Part shown: positions 5,113 to 27,795 of the stretch, piece after piece
How positions within the stretch are numbered: the first letter of the stretch is position 1
Layout: each line of letters opens with the position of its first letter
Origin: a virus
Taxonomy: Duplodnaviria; Heunggongvirae; Uroviricota; Caudoviricetes
DNA length: 32,334 bases
Virus record (IMG/VR): IMGVR_UViG_2802429240_000010
Strand: one strand, 5' to 3'
Position numbers and translations under genes: made by a program
Notes under the pieces: generated by a model
The model's database searches: none
Seen by the model: only the letters and a program-made list of their open reading frames with translations
Told to the model about the DNA's origin: nothing

Positions 5113-6303
5113 TTAATTGCTGTTAACCGAGGTGACCAGATTTGCCAGGTATTTATCGGTAATACGCTGGCGCAGGGTCAGGTTTTCGAGAGGAGGCACC
5201 GGGGTATAGTCGTAGTCGATATACAGTTTTCCGGCCTTGAGGGTTTCCGCATCGTTGGATTCTTCGCTGAACCAGCAGGTCGCATCCACGATATAGCCGT
5301 TTGTTTTCAGCTCACGGAATTTGGCATTGATGCCGTCAACGATGTCGCGAATCAGCGTTGCGGTGATGGGCTTGTCCACCGCCCACATGTGCGCCTCAGC
5401 CATCGTGTCGGCCAGCACCTGCGCGGTGCGGGTGTAGTTTTCAAAGAGGAACAGCGGGTCATCAGAGCAGGTACGGTTACCCCAGAAGCGGAAACCGTCA
5501 CGGCGAATCAGCGTTGTGACGCCTGACTCATTCAGCAGGTCAGCATCGGTGCCGGACTCCTGCAAATCCCAGAATACAGATGCGCTGATGCCGGTAACAC
5601 CGTTCACCCCAACGTTGGACAGTGTTTTATGCCAGCCCTGCTCCTGGTCGATTTTAGCGCGCAGACCCAGCGCACGGGCGGTGGCATACGCGGTGGCGGT
5701 GGTACTGGTGACCGTATCCCATGCGAGGAAATCCGGCCAGATGACCATCAGCTCACGCTGGCTGAAATTCTGGCGGTAGGCTTTCACCTCGGAAATAGTT
5801 TTACAGCCCCATGCGCTGATATACCCGAAAGCGCGCAGCTTCTGACAGACTGATGCCAGTGCAACAGCCACCTCTTTGGTGTCCAGTCCCGGCACGCCGA
5901 GAATACGCGGTTTAACACCGGTTACCGACTCCGCCGCCAGCAGGGCTTTCAGTCCGGTGTACTGACCGTTTTCGTCGGTAGTGCCGATGATATTGGAAAC
6001 GGTCTGCGCGAGTTTCGTTTCCTCGTCGTCGCCGGTGCCGTCTTCCACACGCACGACAACGGTGACCGGTTTTGACTGGTCGGCGATGGCCTGCAACGAT
6101 GCCGCCAGCGTGCCTTTTTTACCGGCCTTTGCAATTGCGCTCTGCACATTGGTAATCAGTACAGGTTTATTGAGGGGGAAGGTTTCCGCATCCGCATCGC
6201 TGGCCGTGCAGACCATGCCGACAATGGCAGTGGATACGGTGGAAATGACGCGGGTGCCGTCGTTAATCTCCAGCACCTGCACGCCGTGATGATAGTCACT
6301 CAT
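5113..6303 (-). CDS. FI: Contractile tail sheath protein (P2 gpFI-like), 396 aa
   Basis: 396 aa as in P2 FI; conserved sheath sequence; precedes FII by 12 bp. Confidence 0.9.
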   Translation of the reverse strand: MSDYHHGVQVLEINDGTRVISTVSTAIVGMVCTASDADAETFPLNKPVLITNVQSAIAKAGKKGTLAASLQAIADQSKPVTVVVRVEDGTGDDEETKLAQTVSNIIGTTDENGQYTGLKALLAAESVTGVKPRILGVPGLDTKEVAVALASVCQKLRAFGYISAWGCKTISEVKAYRQNFSQRELMVIWPDFLAWDTVTSTTATAYATARALGLRAKIDQEQGWHKTLSNVGVNGVTGISASVFWDLQESGTDADLLNESGVTTLIRRDGFRFWGNRTCSDDPLFLFENYTRTAQVLADTMAEAHMWAVDKPITATLIRDIVDGINAKFRELKTNGYIVDATCWFSEESNDAETLKAGKLYIDYDYTPVPPLENLTLRQRITDKYLANLVTSVNSN

Positions 6304-6525
6304 CCGTTTAACTCCGTGGTTAATGGGTGAGTGGTATTTTCATGTGTGCCGGAGATGTCAGGCTATTTGTCCCGGTTGGCTGAGGGATGGCACAATTTAT
6401 TCTTTGTCGCTGATGAGGCGAATTTTTTATAGAGCGTGGACAGGTCAATATCAAAAATCAGCGCCACACGTTGACGTGATTCCCTCGCAGCCAGCAATCG
6501 TCCTGCCTGTTCCCACACAGTCGAT

Positions 6526-6570
6526 TATCTGGAGCACTGGAACTTGTCGAAATTTCCAGTGCTCCAGATA
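6526..6570. promoter_or_regulatory. Perfect 15-bp inverted repeat with 15-nt spacer in the G-FI intergenic region; candidate stem-loop, terminator or protein-binding site
   Basis: tatctggagcactgg (6526-6540) is the exact reverse complement of ccagtgctccagata (6556-6570); it lies just downstream of the G stop; no U-tract follows on either strand. Confidence 0.4.
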
Positions 6571-6579
6571 TTGAATGGC

Positions 6580-7182
6580 CTACGCCTCCGGCAGTTCAGG
6601 CCAGATAACATCCGGCGCTGTGCTGGTATCTGTTGCTGTCACCGCGTCAATGTAATCCAGCACAGCGTTAAGCCGGGTTGTTTCTGTTTGCGTCAGTTTG
6701 CGCCCGGCCTGCAATTTCAACTGAATCAGACTAATGGAAGCCATTGCGGCATCAATCAGCGACTGGCGCTGTGTTTCTGCCGTCTCTACTGCGACGTGAT
6801 GTTGCTCCTCAGTATCTGTCACCCATTTCTCACCATCCCATTTATCGTATGGCGTTAACGGGGCGATAGTGGTTGTATTTTCAGGGTAATCACCCGGAGT
6901 TTTAATTTCTTTTGATTCCCCTGTTTCGGTGCTATAGACAATTTCACCACGATGGTCTGATACATATTCCCATGATTTTAAATCCACAGAACGGCAAATT
7001 GTATAACCAGCCTTATGTGTGCCAGGAGCGTCTAAACAGGAATATGCCGGAATACCGACACCCACAGCAAGATATTCAGTTGATGCAGAAATATATTCCC
7101 GCGTCTCACTGTCATAGTTGTAAACGATAATGTTTCCTTCCTGCACGGCAATAAGTTCATTATTTAATACCGCGTGATTCAT
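6580..7182 (-). CDS. G: Tail fibre assembly protein (P2 gpG / Tfa-like), 200 aa
   Basis: Sits immediately downstream of the tail fibre gene; start shares a base with the H stop; acidic N-terminal half and Tfa-like C-terminal region. Confidence 0.75.
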   Translation of the reverse strand: MNHAVLNNELIAVQEGNIIVYNYDSETREYISASTEYLAVGVGIPAYSCLDAPGTHKAGYTICRSVDLKSWEYVSDHRGEIVYSTETGESKEIKTPGDYPENTTTIAPLTPYDKWDGEKWVTDTEEQHHVAVETAETQRQSLIDAAMASISLIQLKLQAGRKLTQTETTRLNAVLDYIDAVTATDTSTAPDVIWPELPEA

Positions 7183-8573
7183 TATGCAGCCCTCACAATA
7201 AAGTTAAATGCAATATTGCGCGGTCGTGTTTCGCTCCCGCCCGTGTTACCAATACTTCCTCGTGAATGCAACCTCGGAGCCGGAATAAGGGTTCCCCCTG
7301 TATAAACGGCGTCAAGCCCCCGACCTTGTGTGTATGTATTCTGAAAAATTGTAGCCAACTCCCATTCTTCACCTGAATCATAACCATCGTTGGCAACAAC
7401 AATATGGCGGTGCTTCTCCAGCATCCCAGCCTGAATGCTCAATAAAGCACGTCCTGCATCAATACCACGCCCGTCATCCCATCCACGAATAAACTCACCA
7501 CGTAAATCCAGCAGTTTCCCTGACGGGTATGCTTTGGCAAGGTTGGGATATTTCACTTTATCAAAGGCAGCACCATTGCATTTCAGCCAGCCTGTCGGCG
7601 GAGTAGCAGAAGGCCACGGAATCGGTACACCAACAGGCAATGCAGAGCCTTCTCCCAAACCAAGATAATCAAGAACTCCCTGTGTGCTGGGCTTACTAAG
7701 AATGGCACGACCAACACTTGTCAGTGCAGTTAACGCGGCACGATCTACCCCTGTAAAATAAGGGAGTTTATCTGCCGCTGTAGCAAGCCCTGCCAGAGCA
7801 GTGAGTATGGCGTCTGCCGGTTGTCTTCCATTAGCCAGGTCGTATGCAGCCTTTACCGCTTTTGGCGTTGCAGCCAGTGTTTCAGATGTGCTGTTGGTTG
7901 CACTACTGAGCTGAACAAGCCCTTTTCGTGCCGTAGTCGCATCCTGAGCGGTATATTTCCCGTTAGCCAGGTCATATGCAGCCTTAACCGCTTTCGGTGT
8001 TGCGGCCAGTGTTTCAGATGTGCTGTTGGTTGCACTGCTTAACTGAGTAAAACCTTTTTCTGTCAGCGAGGCATCCGGGTGACGTCGTGACTGTTCGTGC
8101 TCAGAAATTTTGTCATCCACATATTTACGTGTTGCCAGTACCACAGCCGGGTCGATTTTCAGCGTGATGGCTTCGGTGTTCGTGACAACCAGAATCATGC
8201 GGATAGTCTGGGTGCGGCCACTGCCTTCCTGTAACTGCGGCTTGTACGTTTCCGGGCAGTTCGCCACCGCAATGAGTACGCCTTCATCATCATAAAGCCC
8301 AATCTCACGGATCCAGAATCCGCCCTCGTTCTCAGGGATGATTTGCTCCGCAATAATCTGGCTCTGGTTGTTCGGGTCAACACTCAGAAGATTCAGCGGC
8401 GCGATGCGTTTCTGGTTAATCAGTTTTGTCTGTGCCGGGTCTGGTGTCGGCAAGACACCATTCGCATCACCAACGGCCATTTGCGTCAGATTCAGCTTAC
8501 TGCCGAGCATCGTCGCGTTAGCCAGCCGTGCTGCGCCCTGATTAGTCAGAATGGCGTAGTATTTCACTGTCAT
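7182..8573 (-). CDS. H: Tail fibre protein (P2 gpH-like N-terminus with a different C-terminal receptor-binding region), 463 aa
   Basis: N-terminal ~250 aa resemble P2 gpH, including the duplicated QLSSATNSTSETLAATPKAVKAAYDLANG block; the C-terminus resembles Mu S / lambda Stf-type fibre ends (ETRPRNIAFNFIV); shorter than the 669-aa P2 H. Confidence 0.85.
   Translation of the reverse strand: MTVKYYAILTNQGAARLANATMLGSKLNLTQMAVGDANGVLPTPDPAQTKLINQKRIAPLNLLSVDPNNQSQIIAEQIIPENEGGFWIREIGLYDDEGVLIAVANCPETYKPQLQEGSGRTQTIRMILVVTNTEAITLKIDPAVVLATRKYVDDKISEHEQSRRHPDASLTEKGFTQLSSATNSTSETLAATPKAVKAAYDLANGKYTAQDATTARKGLVQLSSATNSTSETLAATPKAVKAAYDLANGRQPADAILTALAGLATAADKLPYFTGVDRAALTALTSVGRAILSKPSTQGVLDYLGLGEGSALPVGVPIPWPSATPPTGWLKCNGAAFDKVKYPNLAKAYPSGKLLDLRGEFIRGWDDGRGIDAGRALLSIQAGMLEKHRHIVVANDGYDSGEEWELATIFQNTYTQGRGLDAVYTGGTLIPAPRLHSRGSIGNTGGSETRPRNIAFNFIVRAA
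7832..8064. repeat. Imperfect tandem direct repeat (~132-bp unit, 2 copies) inside the tail fibre gene
   Basis: tagccaggtc...cagtgtttcagatgtgctgttggttgcact occurs at 7832 and again at 7964; it encodes the duplicated 44-aa block in gpH. Confidence 0.8.
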
Positions 8574-9181
8574 GCGTTTACTCTCAGGTTATCAATTAAA
8601 TGAATGGCCGAGGCCGGGAAATAATCCCCTCCGACAATAATGGCCTCCGGGGTGTAGGGATAAACCGTCAGGGCGTCACCGTGATAGCATCCCGCACCGG
8701 CAAAAATGTTGCCGGTTGTACTTAAACTGATAGCCAGTCCCGTCAGATGGCGGCTTGCCGGTTTTGCATCAGCAACGAGACGCTCCAGCTCCTGATACAT
8801 TTCCTCGGTAATACCCTGCTCAAGCACGCCAACAACGATGCGGAACGTCCCCGGTTTCTCGTTGAGTTGCCACCACTCCCTCACCTCAATCAGATAGCCA
8901 AGCGGCTCCACCACACGGCGAATCGCACCGATAGTGCCCTTATGGCAGTGAATGAAATACGCATCGCGGATAACAGCGCGTTTGGTCGCTTCCGGCCACT
9001 TATCATCCCAGCGGTCAACCGAAAACGCCCACGCCAGCCACGGCAGCAGATTTGCCGGGCAGGTGTCCGGGTTCCACAGTTCACGAATACTGACCGGCGT
9101 TTTTTCAATTTCCGCACAGGCTTTTGCGGCGGCGACTTCAAGCGGTGATGAGCCGGTCGGCAGCAGGCGCGAATCACTCAT
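8570..9181 (-). CDS. I: Baseplate assembly protein (P2 gpI-like), 203 aa
   Basis: Position between J and H; sequence resembles P2 gpI. Confidence 0.8.
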   Translation of the reverse strand: MSDSRLLPTGSSPLEVAAAKACAEIEKTPVSIRELWNPDTCPANLLPWLAWAFSVDRWDDKWPEATKRAVIRDAYFIHCHKGTIGAIRRVVEPLGYLIEVREWWQLNEKPGTFRIVVGVLEQGITEEMYQELERLVADAKPASRHLTGLAISLSTTGNIFAGAGCYHGDALTVYPYTPEAIIVGGDYFPASAIHLIDNLRVNA

Positions 9182-17501: not shown

Positions 17502-19274
17502 ATGACCATCACCACAGACACCACTCTTTTGCACGACCCGCGTCGTCAGGCGGCGCTGCTGTACTGGCAGGGGTTTTCCGTGCCGCAGATTGCCGCCATG
17601 TTGCAGATGAAACGCCCGACGGTGCAGAGCTGGAAACAGCGCGACGGCTGGGACAGCGTTGCCCCCATCAGCCGTGTCGAAATGAGTCTGGAAGCGCGGC
17701 TGACCCAGCTCATCATCAAACCGCAGAAAACCGGCGGTGACTTCAAGGAAATTGACCTGCTGGGACGCCAGATTGAACGACTGGCACGGGTCAACCGTTA
17801 CAGTCAGACCGGCAACGAGGCAGACCTTAATCCGAACGTCGCTAACCGCAACAAAGGCGGGCGCCGCAAACCGAAAAAGAATTTTTTCAGCGACGAAGCC
17901 ATCGAAAAGCTGGAGCAGATTTTCTTTGAGCAGTCTTTCGAATATCAGTTGCACTGGTATCGCGCCGGGCTTGAGCACCGCATCCGCGATATCCTGAAAT
18001 CCCGCCAGATTGGCGCAACGTTTTATTTTTCCCGCGAGGCGCTGCTGCGCGCCCTGAAAACCGGCCATAACCAGATTTTTCTGTCGGCCAGTAAAACGCA
18101 GGCGTATGTGTTCCGCGAATACATCATCGCCTTTGCCCGTCTGGTTGACGTTGACCTGACCGGTGACCCGATTGTCCTGGGCAATAACGGCGCAAAACTG
18201 ATTTTTCTCGGCACCAACTCCAACACCGCGCAGAGCCATAACGGCGACCTGTACGTCGATGAGATTTTCTGGATCCCGAATTTTCAGGTACTGCGTAAGG
18301 TGGCATCAGGTATGGCCTCACAGAGTCACCTGCGTTCGACCTATTTCTCCACCCCGTCCACGCTGGCGCACGACGCCTACCCGTTCTGGTCGGGTGAACT
18401 GTTTAACCGGGGACGCGCCAGCGCCGCTGAACGCGTGGAAATCGACGTCAGTCATAACGCACTTGCCGGAGGTCTTCTCTGTGCGGACGGCCAGTGGCGG
18501 CAGATTGTCACCATTGAGGACGCCCTGAAAGGCGGCTGCACGCTGTTCGACATTGAGCAGCTCAAACGCGAAAATAGCGCCGACGATTTTAAAAACCTGT
18601 TCATGTGTGAATTTGTTGACGACAAGGCGTCGGTGTTCCCGTTCGAGGAGCTGCAACGCTGCATGGTCGACACGCTGGAAGAATGGGAAGACTATGCGCC
18701 GTTTGTCGCGAATCCGTTCGGCTCCCGCCCGGTATGGATTGGTTACGACCCGTCACACCGTGGCGACAGCGCCGGATGCGTGGTACTGGCACCGCCGGTG
18801 GTGGCCGGTGGCAAATTCAGAATACTTGAGCGTCACCAGTGGAAAGGCATGGACTTTGCCACTCAGGCGGAATCCATCCGCAAACTCACCGAAAAATACA
18901 ACGTCGAATACATCGGTATTGATGCCACCGGCCTCGGTGTCGGCGTGTTCCAGCTCGTGCGCTCGTTCTATCCCGCCGCGCGCGACATCCGCTACACGCC
19001 GGAAATGAAAACCGCAATGGTGCTCAAGGCAAAAGACGTTATCCGTCGTGGCTGTCTGGAATATGACGTCAGCGCCACCGACATCACCAGCTCGTTTATG
19101 GCTATCCGCAAGACCATGACCAGCAGCGGACGCAGCGCCACCTATGAGGCCAGCCGCAGCGAGGAAGCCAGCCACGCCGACCTCGCCTGGGCGACCATGC
19201 ACGCCCTGTTAAATGAGCCACTCACCGCCGGTATCAGCACCCCGCTGACATCCACCATTCTGGAGTTTTACTGA
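17502..19274 (+). CDS. P: Terminase large (ATPase) subunit (P2 gpP-like), 590 aa
   Basis: From ATG 17502 (MTITTDTTLLHDPRRQ) the protein is 590 aa as in P2 gpP; the track ORF begins 10 codons earlier. Confidence 0.9.
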   Translation: MTITTDTTLLHDPRRQAALLYWQGFSVPQIAAMLQMKRPTVQSWKQRDGWDSVAPISRVEMSLEARLTQLIIKPQKTGGDFKEIDLLGRQIERLARVNRYSQTGNEADLNPNVANRNKGGRRKPKKNFFSDEAIEKLEQIFFEQSFEYQLHWYRAGLEHRIRDILKSRQIGATFYFSREALLRALKTGHNQIFLSASKTQAYVFREYIIAFARLVDVDLTGDPIVLGNNGAKLIFLGTNSNTAQSHNGDLYVDEIFWIPNFQVLRKVASGMASQSHLRSTYFSTPSTLAHDAYPFWSGELFNRGRASAAERVEIDVSHNALAGGLLCADGQWRQIVTIEDALKGGCTLFDIEQLKRENSADDFKNLFMCEFVDDKASVFPFEELQRCMVDTLEEWEDYAPFVANPFGSRPVWIGYDPSHRGDSAGCVVLAPPVVAGGKFRILERHQWKGMDFATQAESIRKLTEKYNVEYIGIDATGLGVGVFQLVRSFYPAARDIRYTPEMKTAMVLKAKDVIRRGCLEYDVSATDITSSFMAIRKTMTSSGRSATYEASRSEEASHADLAWATMHALLNEPLTAGISTPLTSTILEFY

Positions 19275-20308
19275 TGAGCAAGAAAAAAGGGAAAACACCG
19301 CAACCTGCGGCAAAAACAATGACCGCCAGCGCCCCGAAAATGGAGGCATTCACCTTTGGTGAGCCGGTGCCGGTACTCGACCGCCGTGACATTCTGGATT
19401 ACGTCGAGTGCATCAGTAACGGCAGATGGTATGAGCCACCGGTCAGCTTTACCGGTCTGGCAAAAAGCCTGCGTGCTGCCGTGCATCACAGCTCACCGAT
19501 TTACGTCAAACGTAATATTCTGGCCTCGACATTTATCCCGCATCCGTGGCTTTCCCAGCAGGATTTCAGCCGCTTTGTGCTGGATTTTCTGGTGTTCGGT
19601 AATGCGTTTCTGGAAAAGCGTTACAGCACCACCGGTAAGGTCATCAGACTGGAAACCTCACCGGCAAAATATACCCGCCGTGGCGTGGAGGAGGATGTTT
19701 ACTGGTGGGTGCCGTCCTTCAACGAGCCGACACCTTTCGCGCCCGGCTCCGTGTTTCACCTGCTGGAGCCGGATATTAATCAGGAGCTGTACGGTCTGCC
19801 GGAATATCTCAGCGCCCTTAACTCTGCGTGGCTGAATGAATCAGCCACGCTGTTCCGCCGCAAGTATTATGAAAACGGCGCACATGCCGGATACATCATG
19901 TATGTCACCGATGCCGTGCAGGATCGCAACGATATCGAAATGCTCCGCGAAAACATGGTCAAGTCAAAAGGCCGCAACAACTTTAAAAACCTGTTTCTCT
20001 ATGCACCGCAGGGAAAGCCAGACGGCATCAAAATTATCCCGCTCAGTGAAGTGGCAACGAAGGACGATTTTTTTAATATCAAAAAAGCCAGCTCCGCTGA
20101 CCTGCTGGACGCGCACCGCATCCCCTTTCAGTTGATGGGTGGCAAGCCGGAGAACGTCGGGTCGCTGGGTGATATTGAGAAAGTGGCAAAGGTCTTTGTC
20201 CGCAATGAGCTTATCCCGTTACAGGACAGGATTCGGGAAATAAACGGCTGGCTCGGTCAGGAGGTCATCCGCTTTAAAAACTACTCACTGGACACTGACA
20301 ACGGCTGA
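19274..20308 (+). CDS. Q: Portal protein (P2 gpQ-like), 344 aa
   Basis: 344 aa as in P2 gpQ; start overlaps the P stop (ATGA); the cos site follows. Confidence 0.9.
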   Translation: MSKKKGKTPQPAAKTMTASAPKMEAFTFGEPVPVLDRRDILDYVECISNGRWYEPPVSFTGLAKSLRAAVHHSSPIYVKRNILASTFIPHPWLSQQDFSRFVLDFLVFGNAFLEKRYSTTGKVIRLETSPAKYTRRGVEEDVYWWVPSFNEPTPFAPGSVFHLLEPDINQELYGLPEYLSALNSAWLNESATLFRRKYYENGAHAGYIMYVTDAVQDRNDIEMLRENMVKSKGRNNFKNLFLYAPQGKPDGIKIIPLSEVATKDDFFNIKKASSADLLDAHRIPFQLMGGKPENVGSLGDIEKVAKVFVRNELIPLQDRIREINGWLGQEVIRFKNYSLDTDNG

Positions 20309-20313
20309 ACATC

Positions 20314-20335
20314 GCCGCCTGCGGGCGGCTTTTTT
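20314..20335 (+). terminator. Rho-independent terminator downstream of Q
   Basis: gccgcc-tgcg-ggcggc hairpin (6-bp GC stem) followed by a run of 6 T, starting 6 nt after the Q stop. Confidence 0.6.
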
Positions 20336-20477: not shown

Positions 20478-20496
20478 GTGCTTTCCCCGCCTCGCC
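20478..20496. other. cos: P2-type cos site (19-nt cohesive end sequence)
   Basis: gtgctttccccgcctcgcc is the exact reverse complement of the P2 cohesive end GGCGAGGCGGGGAAAGCAC as I recall it; it lies just past Q, as in P2. Confidence 0.85.
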
Positions 20497-20547
20497 CGCC
20501 CGCTTCGTGGGGCGGTTTTAATGCAGGTGCATTTAAGCCTCTAACCC

Positions 20548-20639: not shown

Positions 20640-21764
20640 ATGGCAAGAGTCCCAAGACAACCTGAACAAGTGATCACAGAAGAAGATAAAGTTGACCTGG
20701 ATAACCAGATCAAATCCATGCAAAAAATAACGGATCACCAAATTAGAGAGTTTCCTGTAAGTGTCATTGTTGACAAATTTCAGAAAGGATTAGAAACCGA
20801 CCAAGCAGAACTATACATACCTGATTATCAAAGGGAATTTGTTTGGAGCAATGTTCAAAAATCAAGATTCATTGAATCTCTTTTGCTAAATATTCCTATC
20901 CCATATGTATTTGTCGCCGATATCGGAAATGACGATGGGCGATTGGAAATCGTTGATGGTAGCCAGAGGATTAGAACACTTTATCATTTCCTAAATGATA
21001 AATTTACCCTTACTGGATTAAAAAAGCTAACTTCAGCCAACGGATTCAAATACTCTGACTTCACACCTGCACGTAAGCTTAGATTCGATAGAAAAACTAT
21101 TCGAATGATTGAACTCACTGAATTATGTGATGAAGAAGCAAGAAGGGAGATTTTCGATCGATTGAATACAGGTGGAATAAAACTCACGACAATGGAGCAA
21201 CGACAGGGCAGTAATGATGGGCCTTTTCTTGATGTTGTTAATAGACTATCAGAGTTTCCATTGTTTAGGGAAATATGCCCTCTAAACGATGCTAGGATCA
21301 GTCGTGGAGAATATCCAGAATTGGTTCTTAGATATTTTGCCTATTGTGATAACTATCTTAACTTTGAAAAAAGTGTTGATACTTTCTTAACCCAATATCT
21401 TGACCAACGCAATGAGTCATTTAGTCCTGAGCAAGAAGAAAAACTAACTGCACAATTTCAAGATATGTGTGAATTTGTCAAAACATATTTCCCCTATGGT
21501 TTCAGAAAGAATGCAACGGCAAACACTGTACCAAGAATTCGCTTTGAAGCGTTAGCTGTCGGTTCCACTTTGGCCTTAAAAACTGACTCTAACATAATAC
21601 CAACACCGGTAGAGGAATGGTTAAACTCAGAAGAGTTTATTAAACATACAAGATCTGATGCATCAAATTCAAAACCTAAAGTAAAAGCACGTATTGAATA
21701 TGTAAGAGACAAACTTTTAGGTGTGCAGACCGAAGATACTGTTCTAGATGATAGTGAGGAGTAA
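20640..21764 (+). CDS. DUF262 / ParB-like nuclease-domain protein (GmrSD-like N-terminal domain, no HNH/DUF1524 domain), 374 aa
   Basis: Strong ribosome-binding site and ATG at 20640. Contains DUF262 hallmark motifs IPDYQREFVW and EIVDGSQRIRT. The ~170-aa C-terminal part has no HNH motif I can see. The gene is AT-rich compared with the phage backbone. The track ORF start at 20478 lies inside cos and is an artefact. Confidence 0.75.
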   Translation: MARVPRQPEQVITEEDKVDLDNQIKSMQKITDHQIREFPVSVIVDKFQKGLETDQAELYIPDYQREFVWSNVQKSRFIESLLLNIPIPYVFVADIGNDDGRLEIVDGSQRIRTLYHFLNDKFTLTGLKKLTSANGFKYSDFTPARKLRFDRKTIRMIELTELCDEEARREIFDRLNTGGIKLTTMEQRQGSNDGPFLDVVNRLSEFPLFREICPLNDARISRGEYPELVLRYFAYCDNYLNFEKSVDTFLTQYLDQRNESFSPEQEEKLTAQFQDMCEFVKTYFPYGFRKNATANTVPRIRFEALAVGSTLALKTDSNIIPTPVEEWLNSEEFIKHTRSDASNSKPKVKARIEYVRDKLLGVQTEDTVLDDSEE

Positions 21765-21770
21765 CTATCC

Positions 21771-22502
21771 GTGGTCATCATGAACAGCAAAATTTTATTT
21801 TCTGAAAGAAAAGAAGATATAGAAAAATATTTTGATTTTGTTAAATTCATTATTGATGAGAGACCAACATTCTCGTACAAAGATCGCATAGCAGGCGAAT
21901 GTAAACACCGCGAAATTGATATCGAAATGACGCATATCCTAAAAGCCAATGCGTTTATTATATTATATAACTTAATTGAAGCCACTATATCTAATGCTAT
22001 TGAAGATATACATAATGAACTTAATTCGTGTGATGATCTTTGTGTCGATAAAATTTGCGAAAGTTTAACAAAGCTTGCCTTAAAAAAATTAGACCATCAT
22101 ATGGTGAGTGACATGGATTTTTCACAAGGTGATATAGCAAAACTAGTTCTAAAAAAATGGCTAGAGGAACACAAAAAACAAGTTCAAGCAGATAAAAACC
22201 CCCTATTTTCTGGAAATGTTGACGCACAGAAAATTAGGGATGTTGCTAGTATCTATGGTTTTTCCTCTCAAACAGATCGTTCAAAAACTCATAATGGTGG
22301 AAATTTAGTAAACATAAAAAAAGCAAGAAATGCATTGGCGCATGGTTCAGAATCCTTTTTAAACAAGGGTCAAGAAACGTCTATTGACAACCTTGAACTT
22401 CTTAAAAATGAAGTTTTCCATTACCTAGAAGAAATACTAGAAAACATACAAAAATACCTTGATGATCGCTTATACATACGATCATCAAGACTACAGGCTT
22501 AA
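21771..22502 (+). CDS. Putative HEPN-domain protein (Rx4H motif; MAE_28990/Swt1-like or Abi-like), ~243 aa
   Basis: Starts 7 nt after the upstream stop. GTG at 21771 has a GAGGAG ribosome-binding site 10 nt upstream; the alternative ATG at 21780 has none. Predicted alpha-helical protein with C-terminal KKARNALAHG (Rx4H). AT-rich. Confidence 0.6.
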   Translation: MVIMNSKILFSERKEDIEKYFDFVKFIIDERPTFSYKDRIAGECKHREIDIEMTHILKANAFIILYNLIEATISNAIEDIHNELNSCDDLCVDKICESLTKLALKKLDHHMVSDMDFSQGDIAKLVLKKWLEEHKKQVQADKNPLFSGNVDAQKIRDVASIYGFSSQTDRSKTHNGGNLVNIKKARNALAHGSESFLNKGQETSIDNLELLKNEVFHYLEEILENIQKYLDDRLYIRSSRLQA

Positions 22503-23536
22503 ACTATATTGTGCTCTTTTAGGTGAGTTATAATTGACTCACCTATAACCTCACCTAGTTTTACCGGTACAGCATTACCAATCATCCTACCAACATTCTT
22601 TATAGATACTTTCTCATTGGGTGCAGTAAAAACGTAATCCTTTGGAAACGTTTGTAACAATGCAGCCTCTCTCAGAGAAATTGCACGATTTTGCTCGGGA
22701 TGACCAAATCTGCCATTTCCAAAACCATAACATAGCGTAGTAATTGTAGGACTTGGTTTATCCCAATCCATACGTCCATATACACTAGCATAACCTTGCC
22801 CACTTTTCTTTATGTGGCATGATGCAATCAACTCTACTGGCCAGTCTCGCCATGTCCCTCCTGGTTTAGAGCAAGCAATACGTTTTAGATTTATATCACT
22901 TAATTTACTTGCTTTATGTAAAGGATCAACAGGATCCGTTTGACCAGCCTTTAATGGAGGAAGTCCGCCAATGCATTCTTTTACCGTCACCGCCTTTTCT
23001 ACTTTTGGTTTTACAAATGAAAGCGGCGCAAATTTAGATGCCAATAATACATGCCTAACTCTATTTTGCGGAACACCATAATCTACACATTCAACCTTTC
23101 CGGCCCAGACATGATAACCCAATGCCTCTAAACTATTATAGAAGTCACTATAAACAGAATGCTTCGTTACATCAGGTACATTTTCCATTGTAACGATCTC
23201 TGGATTAACCCCTCGAATTAAACGTTCAAATTCATAAAGAAGAGGCCACTTTTTATCATTTTTCTTATCGCGCCCTTGCGTATACCTTGAAAAAGGTTGG
23301 CACGGCGCACAACCAGCCAACACCCTTACCTGCGCACCTTCAAAAAGATCGTTAAGCTCGTCTTTGGTCACCAGAGAAATATCTTTTTCAATAAAAAGCG
23401 CACTGTTATTACTTTCATAAGCAGCCCGGCATGCACTCTCTATATCAATACCAGCGACTACATCTAATCCGGCTTGCTTTAAGCCATGAGTAAGCCCGCC
23501 AGCACCACAAAAAAGATCAACAACTTTTACCGCCAT
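22499..23536 (-). CDS. DNA (cytosine-5)-methyltransferase, 345 aa
   Basis: Motif I DLFCGAGG, motif IV GCAPCQPFS (catalytic Pro-Cys), motif VI ENV, motif VIII QNRVR, motif X GNAVPV. ATG at 23536 has a GGAGA ribosome-binding site; an upstream in-frame ATG at 23626 is possible. Its stop overlaps the stop of the convergent HEPN gene. Confidence 0.85.
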   Translation of the reverse strand: MAVKVVDLFCGAGGLTHGLKQAGLDVVAGIDIESACRAAYESNNSALFIEKDISLVTKDELNDLFEGAQVRVLAGCAPCQPFSRYTQGRDKKNDKKWPLLYEFERLIRGVNPEIVTMENVPDVTKHSVYSDFYNSLEALGYHVWAGKVECVDYGVPQNRVRHVLLASKFAPLSFVKPKVEKAVTVKECIGGLPPLKAGQTDPVDPLHKASKLSDINLKRIACSKPGGTWRDWPVELIASCHIKKSGQGYASVYGRMDWDKPSPTITTLCYGFGNGRFGHPEQNRAISLREAALLQTFPKDYVFTAPNEKVSIKNVGRMIGNAVPVKLGEVIGESIITHLKEHNIV

Positions 23537-23841
23537 TTTAGTCTCCGATTCATCCTCCGACAGAGTATAACTGTATCCTTCAAAAATCTCGAGCGTTTTA
23601 GCAAACAACAAGAATGCTCCCCACATCCAGCCCTAAGGCCTTATCCTAGCCTAGCTTTACTACAATTAATCCAACAATTTCTGTAAATACATCCATTCCC
23701 TCTCGTAACCGAATACTCTCAACATCCTTTCCACTAATGTACTGTTTTAAATGACTTTAACTTTACATAACTAACGCCTCGCTTCGCTCGTTGTTCAACC
23801 CCGCCAGCCCTGAAAACAAGTTTCACGACTGGCGGCGTTCT

Positions 23842-24048
23842 CTATCGTCTGCGTGGTGGTGGCGTAACTCTTGATTGACCGATATGATTAAACCGCCCGT
23901 AATTATCCCGGACTATTTCGGCACACCCGACCAGCTCATCGGGCGTCAGATTTTCGTTGACCATAATCCGCTGTAAACGCTGAACAATGGCCATCAGCTT
24001 GATATTTTTAGTTTTATGGTGCGGTATCTCGCCTGGTATTCTGTGCAT
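23842..24048 (-). CDS. Hypothetical small protein, 68 aa
   Basis: ATG at 24048 shares a base with the stop of the upstream ASCH gene, suggesting translational coupling; no recognisable motif. Confidence 0.4.
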   Translation of the reverse strand: MHRIPGEIPHHKTKNIKLMAIVQRLQRIMVNENLTPDELVGCAEIVRDNYGRFNHIGQSRVTPPPRRR

Positions 24049-24500
24049 TATCCAAGCCACCCGTTTTGCTTTGCATGCTCCATCTGTTCATCTGAATAAT
24101 TCCATATCCCATCCGTGGCAACCATTGCCCCACCAGACATCCCTGTCTCTGGTTCATACATAACAGCAAGGCCAAGCTGATGCATAATTTCATGATTAAT
24201 TCTGAATACCAGACCACGTTCACTAAGTTCTTTCCAGTTCACAATCTTATATGCGCCCGTATTAAGCAGCTCAATACTTAGCAAGACATAATCTTCCAGC
24301 CAGTCTGACAGGTCAGTAACATCTGTTATCCGGGCTTCAACCTTGCGCCCCGTAAACACACCCTGCACCCATTCATGCAAAATCAACGTGTCCCCGCGCT
24401 CATAATTACGGTCATTTTTCCGAAACTCTGCGCGTTTCTTTCCTTCCAGTACAAGGTCGAAATATTTTGCGTGCAGCTTTACCTCGTGAATTTTTGCCAT
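24048..24500 (-). CDS. ASCH-domain protein with a C-terminal extension carrying an HExxH motif, 150 aa
   Basis: ATG at 24500 shares a base with the A stop. N-terminus has the ASCH GxKxxExR signature (EGKKRAEFR). C-terminal tail contains HEIMH. Sits where P2 has orf91, directly after A. Confidence 0.65.
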   Translation of the reverse strand: MAKIHEVKLHAKYFDLVLEGKKRAEFRKNDRNYERGDTLILHEWVQGVFTGRKVEARITDVTDLSDWLEDYVLLSIELLNTGAYKIVNWKELSERGLVFRINHEIMHQLGLAVMYEPETGMSGGAMVATDGIWNYSDEQMEHAKQNGWLG

Positions 24501-26791
24501 TATGTCCACTCCATTACTGTTGAGAATCCCGGCCACTCATCAGCGACCGGATACGTGAATTTTTTCCCGTCATAATTTACAGTCGCGCCACGCGCCAGCG
24601 CCTCAAGCTCCCATCGCTGAGGCCTGATACCGTTCTGAGCAAGGTCAACGCGGATACGGGTGATTTGCATTCGTTCCGACCGGGTCAGTCTGGCCGATGG
24701 TGCAATTTCATGTGGTTTTAACGGGCTTCCGTTTCTTTGCTGACGACTTGGCGTTCTCCGACCGTGTTTTAATGCACCCCTGAGCGCCCTCACGACCTCC
24801 GGGTCATTCCATTCGATAACACCGTCATCAACCAGATTAAGCACTGCTGCAACGTGCTCAGAAGGTGTGGGAGCCGGTAACGAAGTATCACTACCGGTGA
24901 GCTTTCCACAGTTATTGACAGGACTCCGAGGCGCGGCGATGCCGCTTTTTAAAGTCAAAGGCTCAACGACCGGAACTTTCGGCACAATGCGCCAGTCCGT
25001 CGTTCTGGTGATATGAATATGACGCGCGCCGAGATGCGGCGCGTAAATGCCGACCACTCTCTCGACTTCTTCCTCGTACTCGTTAACGTCATCCGACGGG
25101 CTACGGGCAACCCTGACAGTCTGACAATCGCGCGGGACATTTGCCCCACCCTGCGCGCTGATATACAACGCAAAATCACCACTGTCTGCGGCAGCGCGAG
25201 CAGCCTCGACGCGTTCGTCAAACTCATCAGCAATGCTGACGCCGCTAGGCAATTTGCGTAGTTCACGGTAAGCCCCCATTGTCGGCAGGCCAACCGTTTT
25301 AAATTGTGGAATACGCCACGTTGACGCCCATGCGGTAACAGCCGCTGCAGTATCTTTCAGCGGCCTGCCGGTATCGTTATCGAGCTGACCATCCAGTGCA
25401 TAGCCGTCGATGTTTTTTGAGATGTATTTCGCGATATACCCCGCAGCACCGCCCCGGTTAAGATGTTTTGCCTGAAAACGGTTTCGCGCGGCTCCTCTTT
25501 CGTCGCCATCCTCTTTGAGCGCATAGCGACGCATGATTTCGATAATCTGGTTACGCTGGCGTGGATTACAAAAAAGCATCATATGCCAGTGCGGCGTTCC
25601 GTCGTGGTGTGGCTCGACGACTCGCAAACCGTAGACCTGTAAATCATTATCCTTGAATGCCGTGCGCATCAGGCTCCAGATACGGCAAAGATAACGCTGC
25701 GCATCCTTTGGATTAAATGCCTCATCGTTCCAGCCGTGATTAAGCTGAACGGTTTTACTTTCGCCTTTTCCGACCTGACGTGTCGGGTGATACTTTGACG
25801 GCGCGGTCAGCGTGATAAACATCCCCACATCACCCTCTGCGGCGGCGTAACGCTCAATACCGGCAATGGTGTTCATCAGCTCCATCCGGCGAATTTCAGG
25901 ATTAGAAATACTGCCCATCACCTTACTGATAAGGTCGATGCGTTCGCCGGTTTCCCTGTTTTCGAGGTCACACGATTTAAGAAATTCCAGATTTGCCTGG
26001 CGGCGTGCACGTACATCACGAATGGCATGTTTACTGGCATAAGGAGAACGGTCTTTATTCACCGCCCCGACAGCAATCAGTAACGCCTCATGCCAGCGCA
26101 TACGCTGGCCTTTAAGCTGATGAGTCCACCACTCATCGTTAAACAGACGGGCAATGGCAGAATATGCCCGCCTCGTGGTCATCTGTCCTTTACGGTATTT
26201 TTTCCAGTAGAGCGGGGAAATATTGAAAGCACGTGCAGCGCCAGCAACATGACCATAGAGGTGAGCCTGCGCCTCATCCGTAAACAGCGATTCTTTTTCG
26301 CCATGCGCATCCACCCAGGCATCGCTGAGTTCCTCATACATCATGAAAAGCTGCGATGAGATACGGACGGCAAATTTTTTCAGCTCCTTGTCATTCATTC
26401 CCGGCAGGCGTGCATACTGGTCGCGCTCTGCCAGAAACAGCAACGACGCGTCGGTGTTCATTTCATGGCGCTGATTCACGCGCTCAATGCGCGGCCATAA
26501 ACGACGCTGAAAAGTGGATGTGAGGAAATAAAACCCGTGTAGCGGACTTTTATTGCGCCGGATGTAGTCATAGCGTGAAGTAAACAGCGAGCGCAAAAAG
26601 TAAGGCAGGCGGTTAATCGTGGATAAAACACCTTGCACCTGACGCATCTCGTCACGTGTAAGGGTTCTTTCGCGCCCGACGGCCTCGCGTGGCGCGTTCC
26701 ATGCATAAGCACCGGTAAACGCCTTACCGGTGCCTGCAGCAAATGCTGACGGAGGTACGCAGGTGTATTGCTCCTGGAAAGAATGACTCAT
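24500..26791 (-). CDS. A: Replication initiation endonuclease (P2 gpA-like, rolling-circle), 763 aa
   Basis: Near full-length match to P2 gpA as I recall it (VPPSAFAAGTGK...FTYPVADEWPGFSTVMEWT); size ~761 aa. Confidence 0.9.
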   Translation of the reverse strand: MSHSFQEQYTCVPPSAFAAGTGKAFTGAYAWNAPREAVGRERTLTRDEMRQVQGVLSTINRLPYFLRSLFTSRYDYIRRNKSPLHGFYFLTSTFQRRLWPRIERVNQRHEMNTDASLLFLAERDQYARLPGMNDKELKKFAVRISSQLFMMYEELSDAWVDAHGEKESLFTDEAQAHLYGHVAGAARAFNISPLYWKKYRKGQMTTRRAYSAIARLFNDEWWTHQLKGQRMRWHEALLIAVGAVNKDRSPYASKHAIRDVRARRQANLEFLKSCDLENRETGERIDLISKVMGSISNPEIRRMELMNTIAGIERYAAAEGDVGMFITLTAPSKYHPTRQVGKGESKTVQLNHGWNDEAFNPKDAQRYLCRIWSLMRTAFKDNDLQVYGLRVVEPHHDGTPHWHMMLFCNPRQRNQIIEIMRRYALKEDGDERGAARNRFQAKHLNRGGAAGYIAKYISKNIDGYALDGQLDNDTGRPLKDTAAAVTAWASTWRIPQFKTVGLPTMGAYRELRKLPSGVSIADEFDERVEAARAAADSGDFALYISAQGGANVPRDCQTVRVARSPSDDVNEYEEEVERVVGIYAPHLGARHIHITRTTDWRIVPKVPVVEPLTLKSGIAAPRSPVNNCGKLTGSDTSLPAPTPSEHVAAVLNLVDDGVIEWNDPEVVRALRGALKHGRRTPSRQQRNGSPLKPHEIAPSARLTRSERMQITRIRVDLAQNGIRPQRWELEALARGATVNYDGKKFTYPVADEWPGFSTVMEWT

Positions 26792-27795
26792 TCACATACA
26801 CCGGCATAGACACTACTGCAAACTGACTTATCATTCACCGAAGCCAGCAAATCAAACTGTGCCCCGCCACGCGTGGTCATCGCCCAGTCACGATAAGACT
26901 CAATTCCGTAAGCATCGACAGTAATAATATCAATGCGGCGTTCCGCACGACGCGGGTCATGAGTTGACGGGAAGAAAGTAGAATTTCCGCGTCTGGAGCA
27001 TGCGGCGACAAGTCGCTCCCATTCCGCAACACGCTTAACCTCTTCCGGCCAGCGACTAAAAATTTCAGCTAATTCAGACTTTCTGGCGTGGATGCAGGGC
27101 ATACAACCGACACGACTGCATCCCTGCTGGTATAACGGATTAGGTTTAATTCCATGACGTCTTGCAAATGCAAATACCTCCTCATGCGTCCAGTTCAGAA
27201 TAGGACGGTATACATGGAGCCCGGGCGTATTGTCCGCATCCTCTTCCCAGGCAGGCAGACCCGCGCGCGCAGGAGACTCCTGAGCGCGAACCCCCTGCCA
27301 GCTAATTACCTCATCAAACTCATTAAGCGCAGGTAACACGACCTGAGTACGTACTGGCTCATGTTTAAGGTCAAAAGTGCAAAATCTGGCTTTAGTGGAA
27401 GGAAATCGCCCTTTCCACATGCACAAATCAAGAAATGGGATACCAGTAGGCTTGAGAATTTCCAGCGCACAATTGATGCGCTCTGCCGCTTCCCCCGGAG
27501 ACATTCCGCACTCTTCAACCAGAGAAACAGGCCATTTCTCAGCAATAAACTTGCGCTTACCTTCAATCTGTCGAGAGAAGTCAGCTTTAACCCGTTTAAC
27601 CGGCCCGAGTCGGTTCTCCAGATAATCGAGATACTCCATTGTCTGCGGATGCTCATGCCCGGTGTCTGCAAAAACCGGCAAAAAATGCACACCGCTTTCA
27701 ATACCAACAAGCCATTGAGCAAGGCTATCCTTTCCGCCAGAAACAGAAATAATATTGATAGAGCTTTCAGCTCGGCAGCGGGTATCAACTATCAT
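26788..27795 (-). CDS. PAPS-reductase / DndC-like PP-loop family protein, 335 aa
   Basis: PP-loop motif SGGKDS near the N-terminus (ISVSGGKDSLAQW); C-terminal cysteine cluster CSRVGCMPC; stop overlaps the A start (ATGA). Confidence 0.8.
   Translation of the reverse strand: MIVDTRCRAESSINIISVSGGKDSLAQWLVGIESGVHFLPVFADTGHEHPQTMEYLDYLENRLGPVKRVKADFSRQIEGKRKFIAEKWPVSLVEECGMSPGEAAERINCALEILKPTGIPFLDLCMWKGRFPSTKARFCTFDLKHEPVRTQVVLPALNEFDEVISWQGVRAQESPARAGLPAWEEDADNTPGLHVYRPILNWTHEEVFAFARRHGIKPNPLYQQGCSRVGCMPCIHARKSELAEIFSRWPEEVKRVAEWERLVAACSRRGNSTFFPSTHDPRRAERRIDIITVDAYGIESYRDWAMTTRGGAQFDLLASVNDKSVCSSVYAGVCE

What the first reader, a model, noticed from the sequence alone, without database searches (positions are those of the whole stretch)
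22499..23536. Convergent C5-cytosine methyltransferase whose stop overlaps the HEPN gene stop
A complete Dcm-type methyltransferase (motifs I, IV, VI, VIII and X present) is transcribed toward the DUF262-HEPN pair, and the two stop codons overlap at 22499-22502, leaving no room for terminators. It could be an orphan phage methyltransferase for anti-restriction, the modification half of an unusual restriction-modification-like system whose restriction half is the DUF262/HEPN pair, or a separate cargo gene. The arrangement forces transcriptional collision or antisense overlap, a possible regulatory link.
Basis: partly seen in the sequence, partly recalled or inferred. Interest (0 to 1): 0.65.

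Follow-up and report, generated by a model that had tools for sequence, protein, structure and literature searches.

The report
Methylase partnered with DUF262-HEPN defence pair
A cytosine DNA methylase in a P2-like prophage is the regular third gene of a widespread DUF262 plus HEPN-RNase defence cassette; it probably marks the cell's own DNA, and the combination was already catalogued but never tested.

Summary
An intact 345-aa C5-cytosine methyltransferase lies at 22499-23536 (-), and its stop overlaps the HEPN gene's stop in the tetramer TTAA (22499-22502).

The locus is the portal-to-replication-gene defence hotspot of a P2-like prophage, next to cos.

The methylase is not a stray cargo gene:
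- The same trio recurs from E. coli phages to cyanobacteria. I found 81 non-redundant loci, 68 of them convergent and 24 with the identical 4-nt stop overlap.
- The three proteins co-diverge (r = 0.88-0.94).
- In 12 loci the trio forms a same-strand operon instead.
- Close relatives of this methylase elsewhere sit beside GHKL-type type II restriction enzymes or the DISARM helicase DrmD. It therefore belongs to a modular "modification" clade.

Most likely it marks self DNA for a sensor (DUF262) and RNase (HEPN) pair.

Caveats:
- About half of the related DUF262-HEPN pairs in one sample have no methylase nearby.
- The distant two-gene relative PD-T4-2 defends without one.

The "no room for terminators" claim is wrong. 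A terminator-like hairpin lies inside the HEPN gene's last codons, and 4-nt convergent overlaps are the commonest kind in bacteria.

The trio was already noted in 2013 and listed among P2 hotspot cargo in 2022. I found no experimental test of it.

The parts
20478..20496 (-). P2 cos cohesive-end sequence. It marks the left boundary of the cargo and shows that the 428-aa ORF starting at GTG 20478 is too long.
   Evidence: Exact match to GGCGAGGCGGGGAAAGCAC, with 0 matches in 100 shuffles. The sequence was recalled from my own knowledge of P2. The low-GC cargo (32-44% against 51-59% in the flanks) starts right after it.
20640..21764 (+). DUF262 / GmrSD_N protein, 374 aa. It has a ParB/sulfiredoxin-like NTPase domain plus a helical C-terminal domain and no recognisable nuclease domain. 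Proposed role: DNA sensor.
   Evidence: Pfam GmrSD_N 1.1e-28. PADLOC NsnA 2.7e-55 and PD-T4-2_A 6.6e-34. SD AAGGAG lies before ATG 20640, and RefSeq uses the same start. DYQRE at 20823-20837 and DGSQR at 20955-20969. The AF2 model (pLDDT 82.8) matches ParB/Noc, BrxU and SspE only weakly: foldseek E >= 6e-4, TM-scores 0.2-0.4, rmsd 9-16 A.
21771..22502 (+). HEPN protein of the MAE_28990 family, 243 aa from GTG 21771 (RefSeq starts at ATG 21780). Proposed role: RNase effector.
   Evidence: Pfam HEPN_MAE_28990 1.2e-19 and HEPN_RiboL-PSP 9.8e-7. The Rx4H motif RNALAHG lies at 22326-22346, and R, H and G are invariant in 35 homologues.
22499..23536 (-). C5-cytosine DNA methyltransferase, 345 aa, intact. 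Proposed role: self-marking (modification) component.
   Evidence: Motifs I, IV, VI, VIII, IX and X are present and are conserved in the 42 full-length cassette-linked methylases from the genome scan and the three E. coli/phage loci.
22499..22502 (.). Shared tetramer TTAA holding both stop codons.
   Evidence: Read directly. The same 4-nt YTAR overlap occurs in 24 of 68 non-redundant convergent cassettes.
22446..22491 (-). Terminator-like hairpin (14 pairs) plus U-tract for the methylase transcript, embedded in the last HEPN codons.
   Evidence: z = -3.4, 0 of 200 shuffles fold as well. It is lineage-specific and absent from the cyanobacterial cassettes inspected.
22520..22545 (+). An 11-pair hairpin 18 nt downstream of the HEPN stop, embedded in the last methylase codons. 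There is no adjacent U-tract.
   Evidence: z = -6.4.
23543..23592 (-). Candidate methylase expression signals: a promoter-like site (TCGAGA-17-TATACT, 23592-23564) and SD GGAG (23546-23543).
   Evidence: These are consensus matches only. The number of promoter-like sites in the region is not above the shuffled expectation.

Best explanation
The methylase is the third, co-inherited gene of a mobile three-gene defence cassette. Here the cassette is carried in the P2 prophage hotspot between the portal gene/cos and the replication gene A.

**Proposed mechanism (inferred, not shown):**
1. The C5-methyltransferase methylates one fixed sequence motif in the host chromosome and the prophage. This marks them as self.
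2. The DUF262 protein is a ParB-like NTPase with a helical DNA-binding domain and no nuclease domain. It surveys DNA and is switched on by incoming DNA that lacks the mark.
3. It then licenses its translationally coupled partner, a HEPN RNase with an intact Rx4H site. The RNase cuts RNA (tRNA or mRNA) and stops phage growth, possibly at the cost of the cell.

The tail-to-tail, stop-on-stop junction is best read as extreme compaction. It keeps the two halves genetically inseparable, as in many restriction-modification cassettes. It is not a required antisense switch.
For: **Shown here:**
1. All three genes are intact and carry their catalytic motifs.
2. A genome scan seeded with the HEPN protein returned 79 loci. 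DUF262 lies directly upstream of HEPN in 78 of them; the exception sits at a contig end. This methylase lies directly downstream and convergent in 43 of them.
3. Scans seeded with the methylase found the pair adjacent in 58 of 78 viral loci that had room to judge, and in 22 of 64 metagenomic loci.
4. Pairwise identities of the three proteins co-vary: MT-DUF262 r = 0.94, MT-HEPN r = 0.89.
5. Among 81 non-redundant trios, 68 are convergent, 6 are DUF262>HEPN>MT and 6 are MT>DUF262>HEPN. Some same-strand junctions overlap by 1-8 nt, consistent with translational coupling.
6. The target-recognition region of the methylase is at least as conserved as the rest: 59-66% against 52-58% identity to the cyanobacterial copies. 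This suggests one conserved target motif.
7. Where the same methylase clade (>=54% identity) lacks the pair, it sits next to one of two partners, often with Vsr. One is a GHKL-ATPase protein that matches PADLOC REase_II at 2e-94. The other is a DISARM DrmD/DrmA-type helicase at E = 0. The window's methylase itself best matches DrmMII, at 7.9e-94.
8. At least three diverged alleles of the trio occupy the same P2 hotspot.

**From the literature:**
- DUF262 acts as an NTP-dependent sensor of DNA modification in GmrSD and SspE (PMC12065111; PMC10952713).
- The authors of the Menshen study speculate that ParB-DUF262 may target non-modified DNA when a solitary methylase is adjacent.
Against: - In the HEPN-seeded sample, 35 of 79 loci have the pair but no methylase, not even remnants.
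- In 16 representative loci of that kind, no DNA methylase family recurs among the 25 most frequent Pfam families within +-7 kb. One locus (L043) has an N6_N4 methylase instead. The tool reports only family counts, so a single missed hit cannot be ruled out.
- Many methylase-less pairs keep full-length ORFs and the Rx4H motif.
- In L011 the methylase is deleted down to 76 residues while the pair stays intact.
- PD-T4-2, a distant DUF262+HEPN relative, defends E. coli from a 1.8-kb two-gene clone without a methylase.
- The pair is therefore not generally lethal without an adjacent methylase.
- Characterised DUF262 sensors recognise modified DNA, not unmodified DNA.
- No methylation data, target motif, RNase activity or protein interaction was tested here.
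Confidence: 0.55

Rival explanations
1. Two independent modules travel together. The DUF262-HEPN pair is a self-sufficient, PD-T4-2-like abortive-infection system triggered by some feature of infection. The methylase is a phage or mobile-element methylase that protects the element's own DNA from other restriction systems, or is simply selfish.
For: - PD-T4-2 works as a two-gene clone.
- 35 of 79 related pairs lack a methylase.
- L011 has lost its methylase but keeps the pair.
- P2 hotspots often hold several unrelated cargo genes.
Against: - The proteins co-diverge (r = 0.88-0.94).
- The linkage persists in non-phage cyanobacterial chromosomes and in three gene orders, with overlapping same-strand ORFs.
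- The methylase clade is otherwise paired with restriction-type partners and is not found alone.
Confidence: 0.2
2. This is a classical DNA-cutting restriction-modification system with an RNase fail-safe. The DUF262 'ParB nuclease' is itself the DNase that cuts unmethylated DNA, and the methylase protects self. The HEPN RNase is a back-up suicide module released when a phage disables restriction, as PrrC is with EcoprrI.
For: - Anantharaman et al. call the partner a ParB nuclease and stress that HEPN genes are embedded in RM operons as a second line of defence.
- The DUF262 protein weakly matches a PADLOC REase_II model (3.3e-8).
Against: - No nuclease domain was detected: no DUF1524 hit in Pfam.
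- The model shows only a ParB-like NTPase and helical domains, resembling ParB/Noc CTPases and the non-nuclease parts of BrxU and SspE.
- DUF262 and HEPN genes overlap by 4 nt in most loci. That fits one complex better than two layers.
Confidence: 0.15
3. The system is modification-dependent (type IV-like or Pgl-like). DUF262 senses modified cytosines, as GmrSD and BrxU do. The methylase either marks phage DNA for later attack or is kept off host DNA by regulation, and the convergent overlap acts as the switch.
For: - All characterised DUF262 sensors read modified DNA.
- PD-T4-2 was selected on T4, whose DNA carries glucosylated hydroxymethylcytosine (my own knowledge).
- The convergent architecture dominates, at 68 of 81 loci.
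Against: - A constitutive methylase would make host DNA a target.
- Convergent geometry is not obligatory: 12 co-directional loci, and one allele with what looks like a two-way terminator.
- Relatives of the methylase act as self-marking genes in type II RM and DISARM contexts.
Confidence: 0.07

Closest known systems
ParB(DUF262) - HEPN(MAE_28990) - DNA methylase operons (Anantharaman et al. 2013, PMC3710099, Table 1). The same Pfam trio is listed as P2-hotspot cargo by Rousset et al. 2022 (PMC9122126, supplementary tables).
   Same: It has the same three domain families, adjacent to each other, and occupies the same P2 hotspot.
   Different: Nothing structural differs, so this locus is a member. 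Those sources only list the association. I found no functional test of it in the searchable library.
PD-T4-2 (Vassallo et al. 2022), a validated two-gene DUF262 + HEPN defence system from E. coli ECOR65
   Same: It has a DUF262 protein followed by a HEPN protein, and the A component is homologous over its full length (PADLOC 6.6e-34). Like several systems in that screen, the window's cassette is prophage cargo.
   Different: - PD-T4-2 is smaller: about 1.5 kb of ORFs for both genes.
- It has no methylase in the active clone.
- The window's HEPN protein matches no PADLOC model.
- The window's DUF262 protein matches NsnA better than PD-T4-2_A.
Menshen (NsnA-NsnB-NsnC)
   Same: The DUF262 protein is NsnA-like over its whole length (2.7e-55). 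Menshen also follows a sensor plus RNase-effector logic.
   Different: There is no NsnB ABC-ATPase. The effector is a MAE_28990 HEPN protein, not an inPIN-BECR NsnC. A dedicated C5 methylase is present instead.
Type II restriction-modification and DISARM systems that use the same methylase clade (DrmMII-like)
   Same: - The methylase is 54-63% identical to copies that sit tail-to-tail or in operons with GHKL-type REase_II proteins or DrmD helicases.
- These pairs show the same tight convergent junctions.
   Different: The partner here has no recognisable DNase or helicase. The only predicted catalytic effector is an RNase.
GmrSD / BrxU / SspE (DUF262-DUF1524 enzymes)
   Same: The N-terminal DUF262 NTPase fold is shared.
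   Different: There is no DUF1524 His-Me nuclease domain. Those enzymes attack modified DNA and are not paired with a cognate cytosine methylase.

Membership tests
C5-cytosine DNA methyltransferases (Pfam PF00145) | Profile score above the curated cut-off over the full length | tested here: met
   187.8 bits against a cut-off of 22, residues 4-336 of 345. TIGR00675 scores 129.8 against 100.65.
C5-cytosine DNA methyltransferases (Pfam PF00145) | Motif I FxGxG, motif IV PCQ with the catalytic Cys, motif VI ENV, motif VIII QxRxR, motif X GNxVP | tested here: met
   FCGAGG 9-14, PCQPFS 78-83, ENV 118-120, QNRVR 157-161, GNAVP 320-324. All are conserved in 42 cassette-linked homologues.
C5-cytosine DNA methyltransferases (Pfam PF00145) | Actual m5C formation at a defined motif | not testable with these tools
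   This needs bisulfite or nanopore methylome data, or an in vitro assay.
E. coli Dcm orthologues (NCBIfam NF007772) | Score above the subfamily cut-off | tested here: not met
   21.3 bits against a cut-off of 710.
ParB(DUF262)-HEPN(MAE_28990)-methylase operon (Anantharaman 2013) | Adjacent genes for a DUF262/ParB-like protein, a MAE_28990-family HEPN protein with Rx4H, and a DNA methylase | tested here: met
   The trio recurs in 81 non-redundant loci.
PD-T4-2 | PD-T4-2_A and PD-T4-2_B profile matches; a two-gene system | tested here: inconclusive
   A matches at 6.6e-34 but less well than NsnA. The HEPN protein matches no PADLOC model, including B. An extra methylase gene is present.
Menshen | NsnA plus an NsnB ABC-ATPase plus an NsnC effector | tested here: not met
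   Only an NsnA-like protein is present. No ATPase gene lies between cos and gene A.
GmrSD-family type IV restriction enzymes | DUF262 N-domain fused to a DUF1524 His-Me nuclease | tested here: not met
   GmrSD_N is present and there is no DUF1524 hit. The C-terminal half of the model is helical with no nuclease match.
DISARM | DrmA, DrmB and DrmC core genes with a DrmM methylase | tested here: not met
   The methylase best matches DrmMII (7.9e-94). No helicase, DUF1998 or PLD genes lie in the cargo region.
Type II restriction-modification | A methylase plus a cognate endonuclease that cleaves unmethylated DNA at the same motif | tested here: inconclusive
   A methylase is present. The partner has no detectable DNase domain, only a weak REase_II profile hit at 3.3e-8. 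Cleavage cannot be tested here.

The most novel reading that the evidence does not exclude
This would be a restriction-modification system whose restriction arm cuts RNA rather than DNA. A ParB-like NTPase switch reads the C5-methylation state of DNA at one conserved motif. On meeting unmarked DNA, it licenses a HEPN RNase. Self/non-self discrimination would then be epigenetic, as in RM systems, while the outcome would be abortive-infection-like. The same methylase clade would be a plug-in self-marker shared by three different effector types: a GHKL restriction enzyme, DISARM, and DUF262-HEPN.
Probability: 0.35. Interest if true: 0.75.

Novelty: new member of a known kind. Interest (0 to 1): 0.42.

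Why it matters
If the methylase really gates a DUF262-HEPN pair, the cassette would link two defence logics usually treated separately: epigenetic self-marking and RNase-mediated abortive infection. It would also give a first function to a very common but untested cargo of P2-like prophages in E. coli, Shigella and many other bacteria.

It would further show that DUF262 sensors can read the absence of a modification. Published authors have only speculated about this.

On the practical side, such prophages would alter the methylome of their hosts and could affect phage therapy and DNA transfer.

If the two modules are instead independent, the locus is an ordinary hotspot with two cargo items.

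Tried and rejected
1. **Overlap as a special regulatory device: rejected as a conserved feature.**
   - Four-nt YTAR overlaps are the modal convergent overlap in prokaryotes, and embedded terminators are common in them.
   - Other alleles have spacers with what look like two-way terminators, or co-directional operons.
   - The two hairpins in the window are lineage-specific. Downstream regions are only modestly more structured than controls across 104 loci, and the control regions differ in composition.
2. **Target motif of the methylase: not obtainable.** The PDB sequence search gives only generic hits (HaeIII, 3g7u, and DNMT1 over the TRD to motif IX part, E about 1e-20). Source names say only "DNA cytosine methyltransferase".
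3. **Solved relatives of the partner proteins by sequence: none**.
4. **Rfam scan of the window: nothing**.
5. **Search for a published test of the trio: nothing found.** I searched domain names, Pfam identifiers and protein accessions. The DARNA preprint and the Hma paper concern other systems.
6. **Hidden methylases or methylase remnants near methylase-less pairs: none**, apart from one N6_N4 case.
7. **Longer ORFs rejected:**
   - The 428-aa DUF262 ORF from GTG 20478 runs across cos.
   - The 375-aa methylase ORF from 23626 is rejected because of the SD before 23536, the RefSeq start and homologue N-termini.
Full report
**1. What is in the sequence**

The window is almost a whole P2-like prophage, with genes from the tail gene D to the integrase.
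- The finding lies between the portal gene (19274-20308, +) and the replication gene A (24500-26791, -).
- The exact P2 cohesive-end sequence is at 20478-20496.
- G+C drops from 51-59% in the phage backbone to 32-44% between about 20500 and 24100.
- This position is the known P2 defence hotspot. Rousset et al. 2022 and Vassallo et al. 2022 both describe it.

The cargo has three genes:
- a DUF262/GmrSD_N protein at 20640-21764 (+)
- a MAE_28990-family HEPN protein at 21771-22502 (+)
- a C5-cytosine methyltransferase at 22499-23536 (-)

RefSeq annotates identical E. coli loci in the same way.

**2. Check of the observation**

The methylase ORF is intact at 345 aa.
- It has a Shine-Dalgarno GGAG before the ATG at 23536.
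- It scores far above the Pfam and TIGRFAM cut-offs.
- It carries motifs I, IV (PCQ, Cys79), VI, VIII, IX and X.

The two stop codons share the tetramer TTAA at 22499-22502.

Two details in the finding are wrong.
- The protein is not a Dcm orthologue.
- There is room for terminators. A 14-pair hairpin followed by a U-tract lies just past the methylase stop, inside the last HEPN codons. An 11-pair hairpin lies just past the HEPN stop, inside the last methylase codons.
- Lillo and Krakauer (PMC2174442) report that 4-bp CTAA/TTAA/CTAG/TTAG overlaps are the typical short convergent overlap. They also report that in E. coli a third of convergent overlaps have a terminator embedded in the partner gene.
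- The geometry is therefore ordinary in itself.

**3. Is the methylase linked to the pair?**

*Scan from the HEPN side.* I aligned 35 HEPN homologues (R, H and G of the Rx4H motif are invariant). I used that alignment to scan one genome per species.
- 79 loci were kept, mostly cyanobacteria. Buttiauxella, Kluyvera, Thalassotalea, Cytophagales and Beggiatoa-like genomes were also represented.
- A DUF262 gene lies directly upstream of HEPN in 78 of them. The exception, L068, has HEPN at a contig end.
- A close homologue of this methylase lies directly downstream and convergent in 43.

*Scan from the methylase side.* I looked at its 80 closest relatives in viral contigs and its 80 closest in metagenomes.
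- Viral contigs: the pair is adjacent in 58 of 78 loci that had room to judge.
- Metagenomes: the pair is adjacent in 22 of 64 such loci.

*Pooled and made non-redundant at 90% methylase identity*, there are 81 trios:
- 68 convergent
- 6 DUF262>HEPN>MT
- 6 MT>DUF262>HEPN
- 1 divergent

Among the convergent ones, 24 have exactly the 4-nt stop overlap and 49 overlap in some way. DUF262 and HEPN most often overlap by 4 nt (28 of 81 loci).

*Co-divergence.* Pairwise identities of the three proteins co-vary, with r = 0.94, 0.89 and 0.88. Between the window and cyanobacteria, the methylase is 54-58% identical, DUF262 44-51% and HEPN 37-43%.

*Same hotspot, several alleles.* At least three diverged alleles of the trio sit in the same P2 hotspot.
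- The window's allele occurs in 4 complete E. coli genomes.
- An allele about 78% identical at the DNA level is also found in phage P24B2.
- A third allele has a methylase 71% identical and is seen on more than 700 contigs of Shigella and E. coli.

Linkage that survives this much divergence, host range and gene-order change argues for a functional unit.

**4. What kind of methylase is it?**

Its target-recognition region is at least as conserved as the catalytic core: 59-66% against 52-58% identity to the cyanobacterial copies. That suggests one conserved target motif. This is an inference, and the motif itself could not be determined.

Where members of the same clade (54% identity or more) are not next to DUF262-HEPN, they have other recurring neighbours, often with a Vsr mismatch endonuclease:
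- a protein of about 660 aa with a GHKL-ATPase domain, which matches a PADLOC type II restriction-enzyme profile at 2e-94
- an SNF2 helicase of about 1046 aa, which matches DISARM DrmD/DrmA at E = 0

The window's methylase itself best matches the DISARM methylase profile DrmMII. This clade is therefore a modular modification gene that combines with different effector modules. DUF262-HEPN occupies the slot that restriction components occupy elsewhere.

**5. The partner proteins**

*DUF262.* An AlphaFold model (pLDDT 82.8) has a ParB/sulfiredoxin-like N-domain and a helical C-terminal half.
- It matches ParB/Noc CTPases, BrxU and SspE only weakly: best foldseek E = 6e-4, TM-scores 0.2-0.4. No other kind of fold scores better.
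- Neither Pfam nor the fold search finds a DUF1524 or any other nuclease domain.
- PADLOC places it nearest to the Menshen sensor NsnA and next to PD-T4-2_A.
- Published work treats DUF262 as an NTP-dependent sensor of DNA modification.

*HEPN.* It keeps the Rx4H RNase motif. Neither partner has a solved relative by sequence.

**6. Most likely mechanism**

The methylase marks self DNA. DUF262 senses unmarked incoming DNA and activates the HEPN RNase.
- Shown here: gene integrity, catalytic motifs, conserved linkage, co-divergence, and modular use of the methylase clade.
- Inferred: methylation as the self mark, DUF262 as reader of its absence, and RNA as the target.

I put this at about 0.55.

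**7. Evidence that limits the claim**

- 35 of the 79 HEPN-seeded loci have the pair but no methylase, and tblastn finds no remnants.
- Their neighbours are unrelated housekeeping genes. One lineage has an N6_N4 methylase instead.
- Several of these pairs are full-length with intact motifs. In a Microcoleus lineage, however, the DUF262 gene is often truncated to about 178 aa, and its DGxQR motif varies more.
- In L011 the methylase is deleted to 76 residues while the pair is intact.
- PD-T4-2, a smaller and distant DUF262+HEPN system, defends from a 1.8-kb two-gene clone.
- The pair is therefore not universally dependent on an adjacent methylase.
- Three explanations remain open: a methylase acting in trans, a different trigger in methylase-less versions, or true independence of the modules.

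**8. Rivals**

- Independent modules travelling together: 0.2.
- A DNA-cutting RM system in which DUF262 is the nuclease and HEPN a PrrC-like fail-safe: 0.15. This is disfavoured by the lack of any nuclease domain.
- A modification-dependent or Pgl-like system with the convergent overlap as a switch: 0.07. This is disfavoured by the variable gene order.

**9. Comparison with what is known**

- Anantharaman et al. [quoted passage not shown]
- Rousset et al. [quoted passage not shown] It does not appear in the held text of their table of tested systems, where the search term DUF262 gave no match.
- The Menshen study speculates that ParB-DUF262 might target unmodified DNA when a solitary methylase is adjacent.
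- I found no experimental study of the trio.

The locus fails membership tests for GmrSD (no DUF1524), Menshen (no NsnB or NsnC) and DISARM (no DrmABC). Membership of PD-T4-2 is inconclusive.

**10. Verdict**

The regulatory-collision idea is not supported as a general feature. The locus is a new member of a kind that has been described computationally but never tested.

Interest is moderate. The open mechanistic question, a methylation-gated RNase defence, is attractive and directly testable. The arrangement itself will not surprise a specialist.

Noticed in passing
window 26788-27795 (-): A PAPS-reductase-domain gene lies just upstream of replication gene A and overlaps its start. It gives PADLOC hits to SspD (8.6e-22), BrxP (1.1e-15) and DndC, which are DNA phosphorothioation and BREX type 4 components. 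It could be a second DNA-modification function in this prophage.
   Followed up: no
window 24048-24536 (-) and 23842-24060 (-): A DUF3850/ASCH plus DUF7415 protein and a small 72-aa ORF sit between the methylase and gene A. Both are conserved in many P2-like phages whatever the hotspot cargo. Their function is unknown.
   Followed up: partly
L002 (phage P24B2), about 2361-2368; compare L001 about 5560: The P24B2 methylase is split by one extra C in a C7/C8 homopolymer, which is G7/G8 on the coding strand within the PGG codons of the TRD. It is otherwise 100% identical to an intact E. coli copy. This is either a sequencing error or a phase-variable tract. The window's allele has no such tract.
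   Followed up: partly
L011 5485-5733: In a Coleofasciculaceae MAG the methylase is reduced to its first 76 residues, directly abutting an intact DUF262-HEPN pair. This is a natural methylase deletion.
   Followed up: partly
L036, L044, L052, L056, L065, L069, L073, L076-L078, L080, L081 (Microcoleus), about 6350-6900: This methylase-less chromosomal lineage has DUF262 truncated to about 178 aa while HEPN stays full-length with its Rx4H motif. It looks like decay of the sensor gene with retention of the RNase.
   Followed up: partly
L043 7785-8762 and L048 7793-8770: In two Nostocales/Rivularia loci an N6_N4-type DNA methylase follows the pair on the same strand in place of the C5 methylase. 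This looks like replacement by a different class of methylase.
   Followed up: no
L198, L204-L207, L209, L217, L241 (viral contigs): In these viral contigs the same methylase clade sits tail-to-tail with a GHKL-ATPase type II restriction-enzyme homologue. Gaps or overlaps are only a few nt, including 4-nt stop overlaps. In several of them a baseplate-hub-like (Phage_GPD family) gene lies just upstream (Pfam-checked in L198; the others cluster with it by BLAST), so this is a different position from the window's hotspot.
   Followed up: partly
L243-L246 (E. coli/Shigella), 6001-8877: A third, very common allele of the trio occupies the same P2 hotspot (methylase P0263, on more than 700 contigs). 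Its two stops are separated by a 29-30-nt spacer; the near-identical viral loci L168/L182 show a GC-rich hairpin flanked by A- and T-runs there.
   Followed up: partly
window 20314-20329 and 20496-20515 (+): Two GC-rich terminator-like hairpins with T-tracts flank the cos site. One lies just after the portal gene and one directly abuts the cohesive-end sequence.
   Followed up: no
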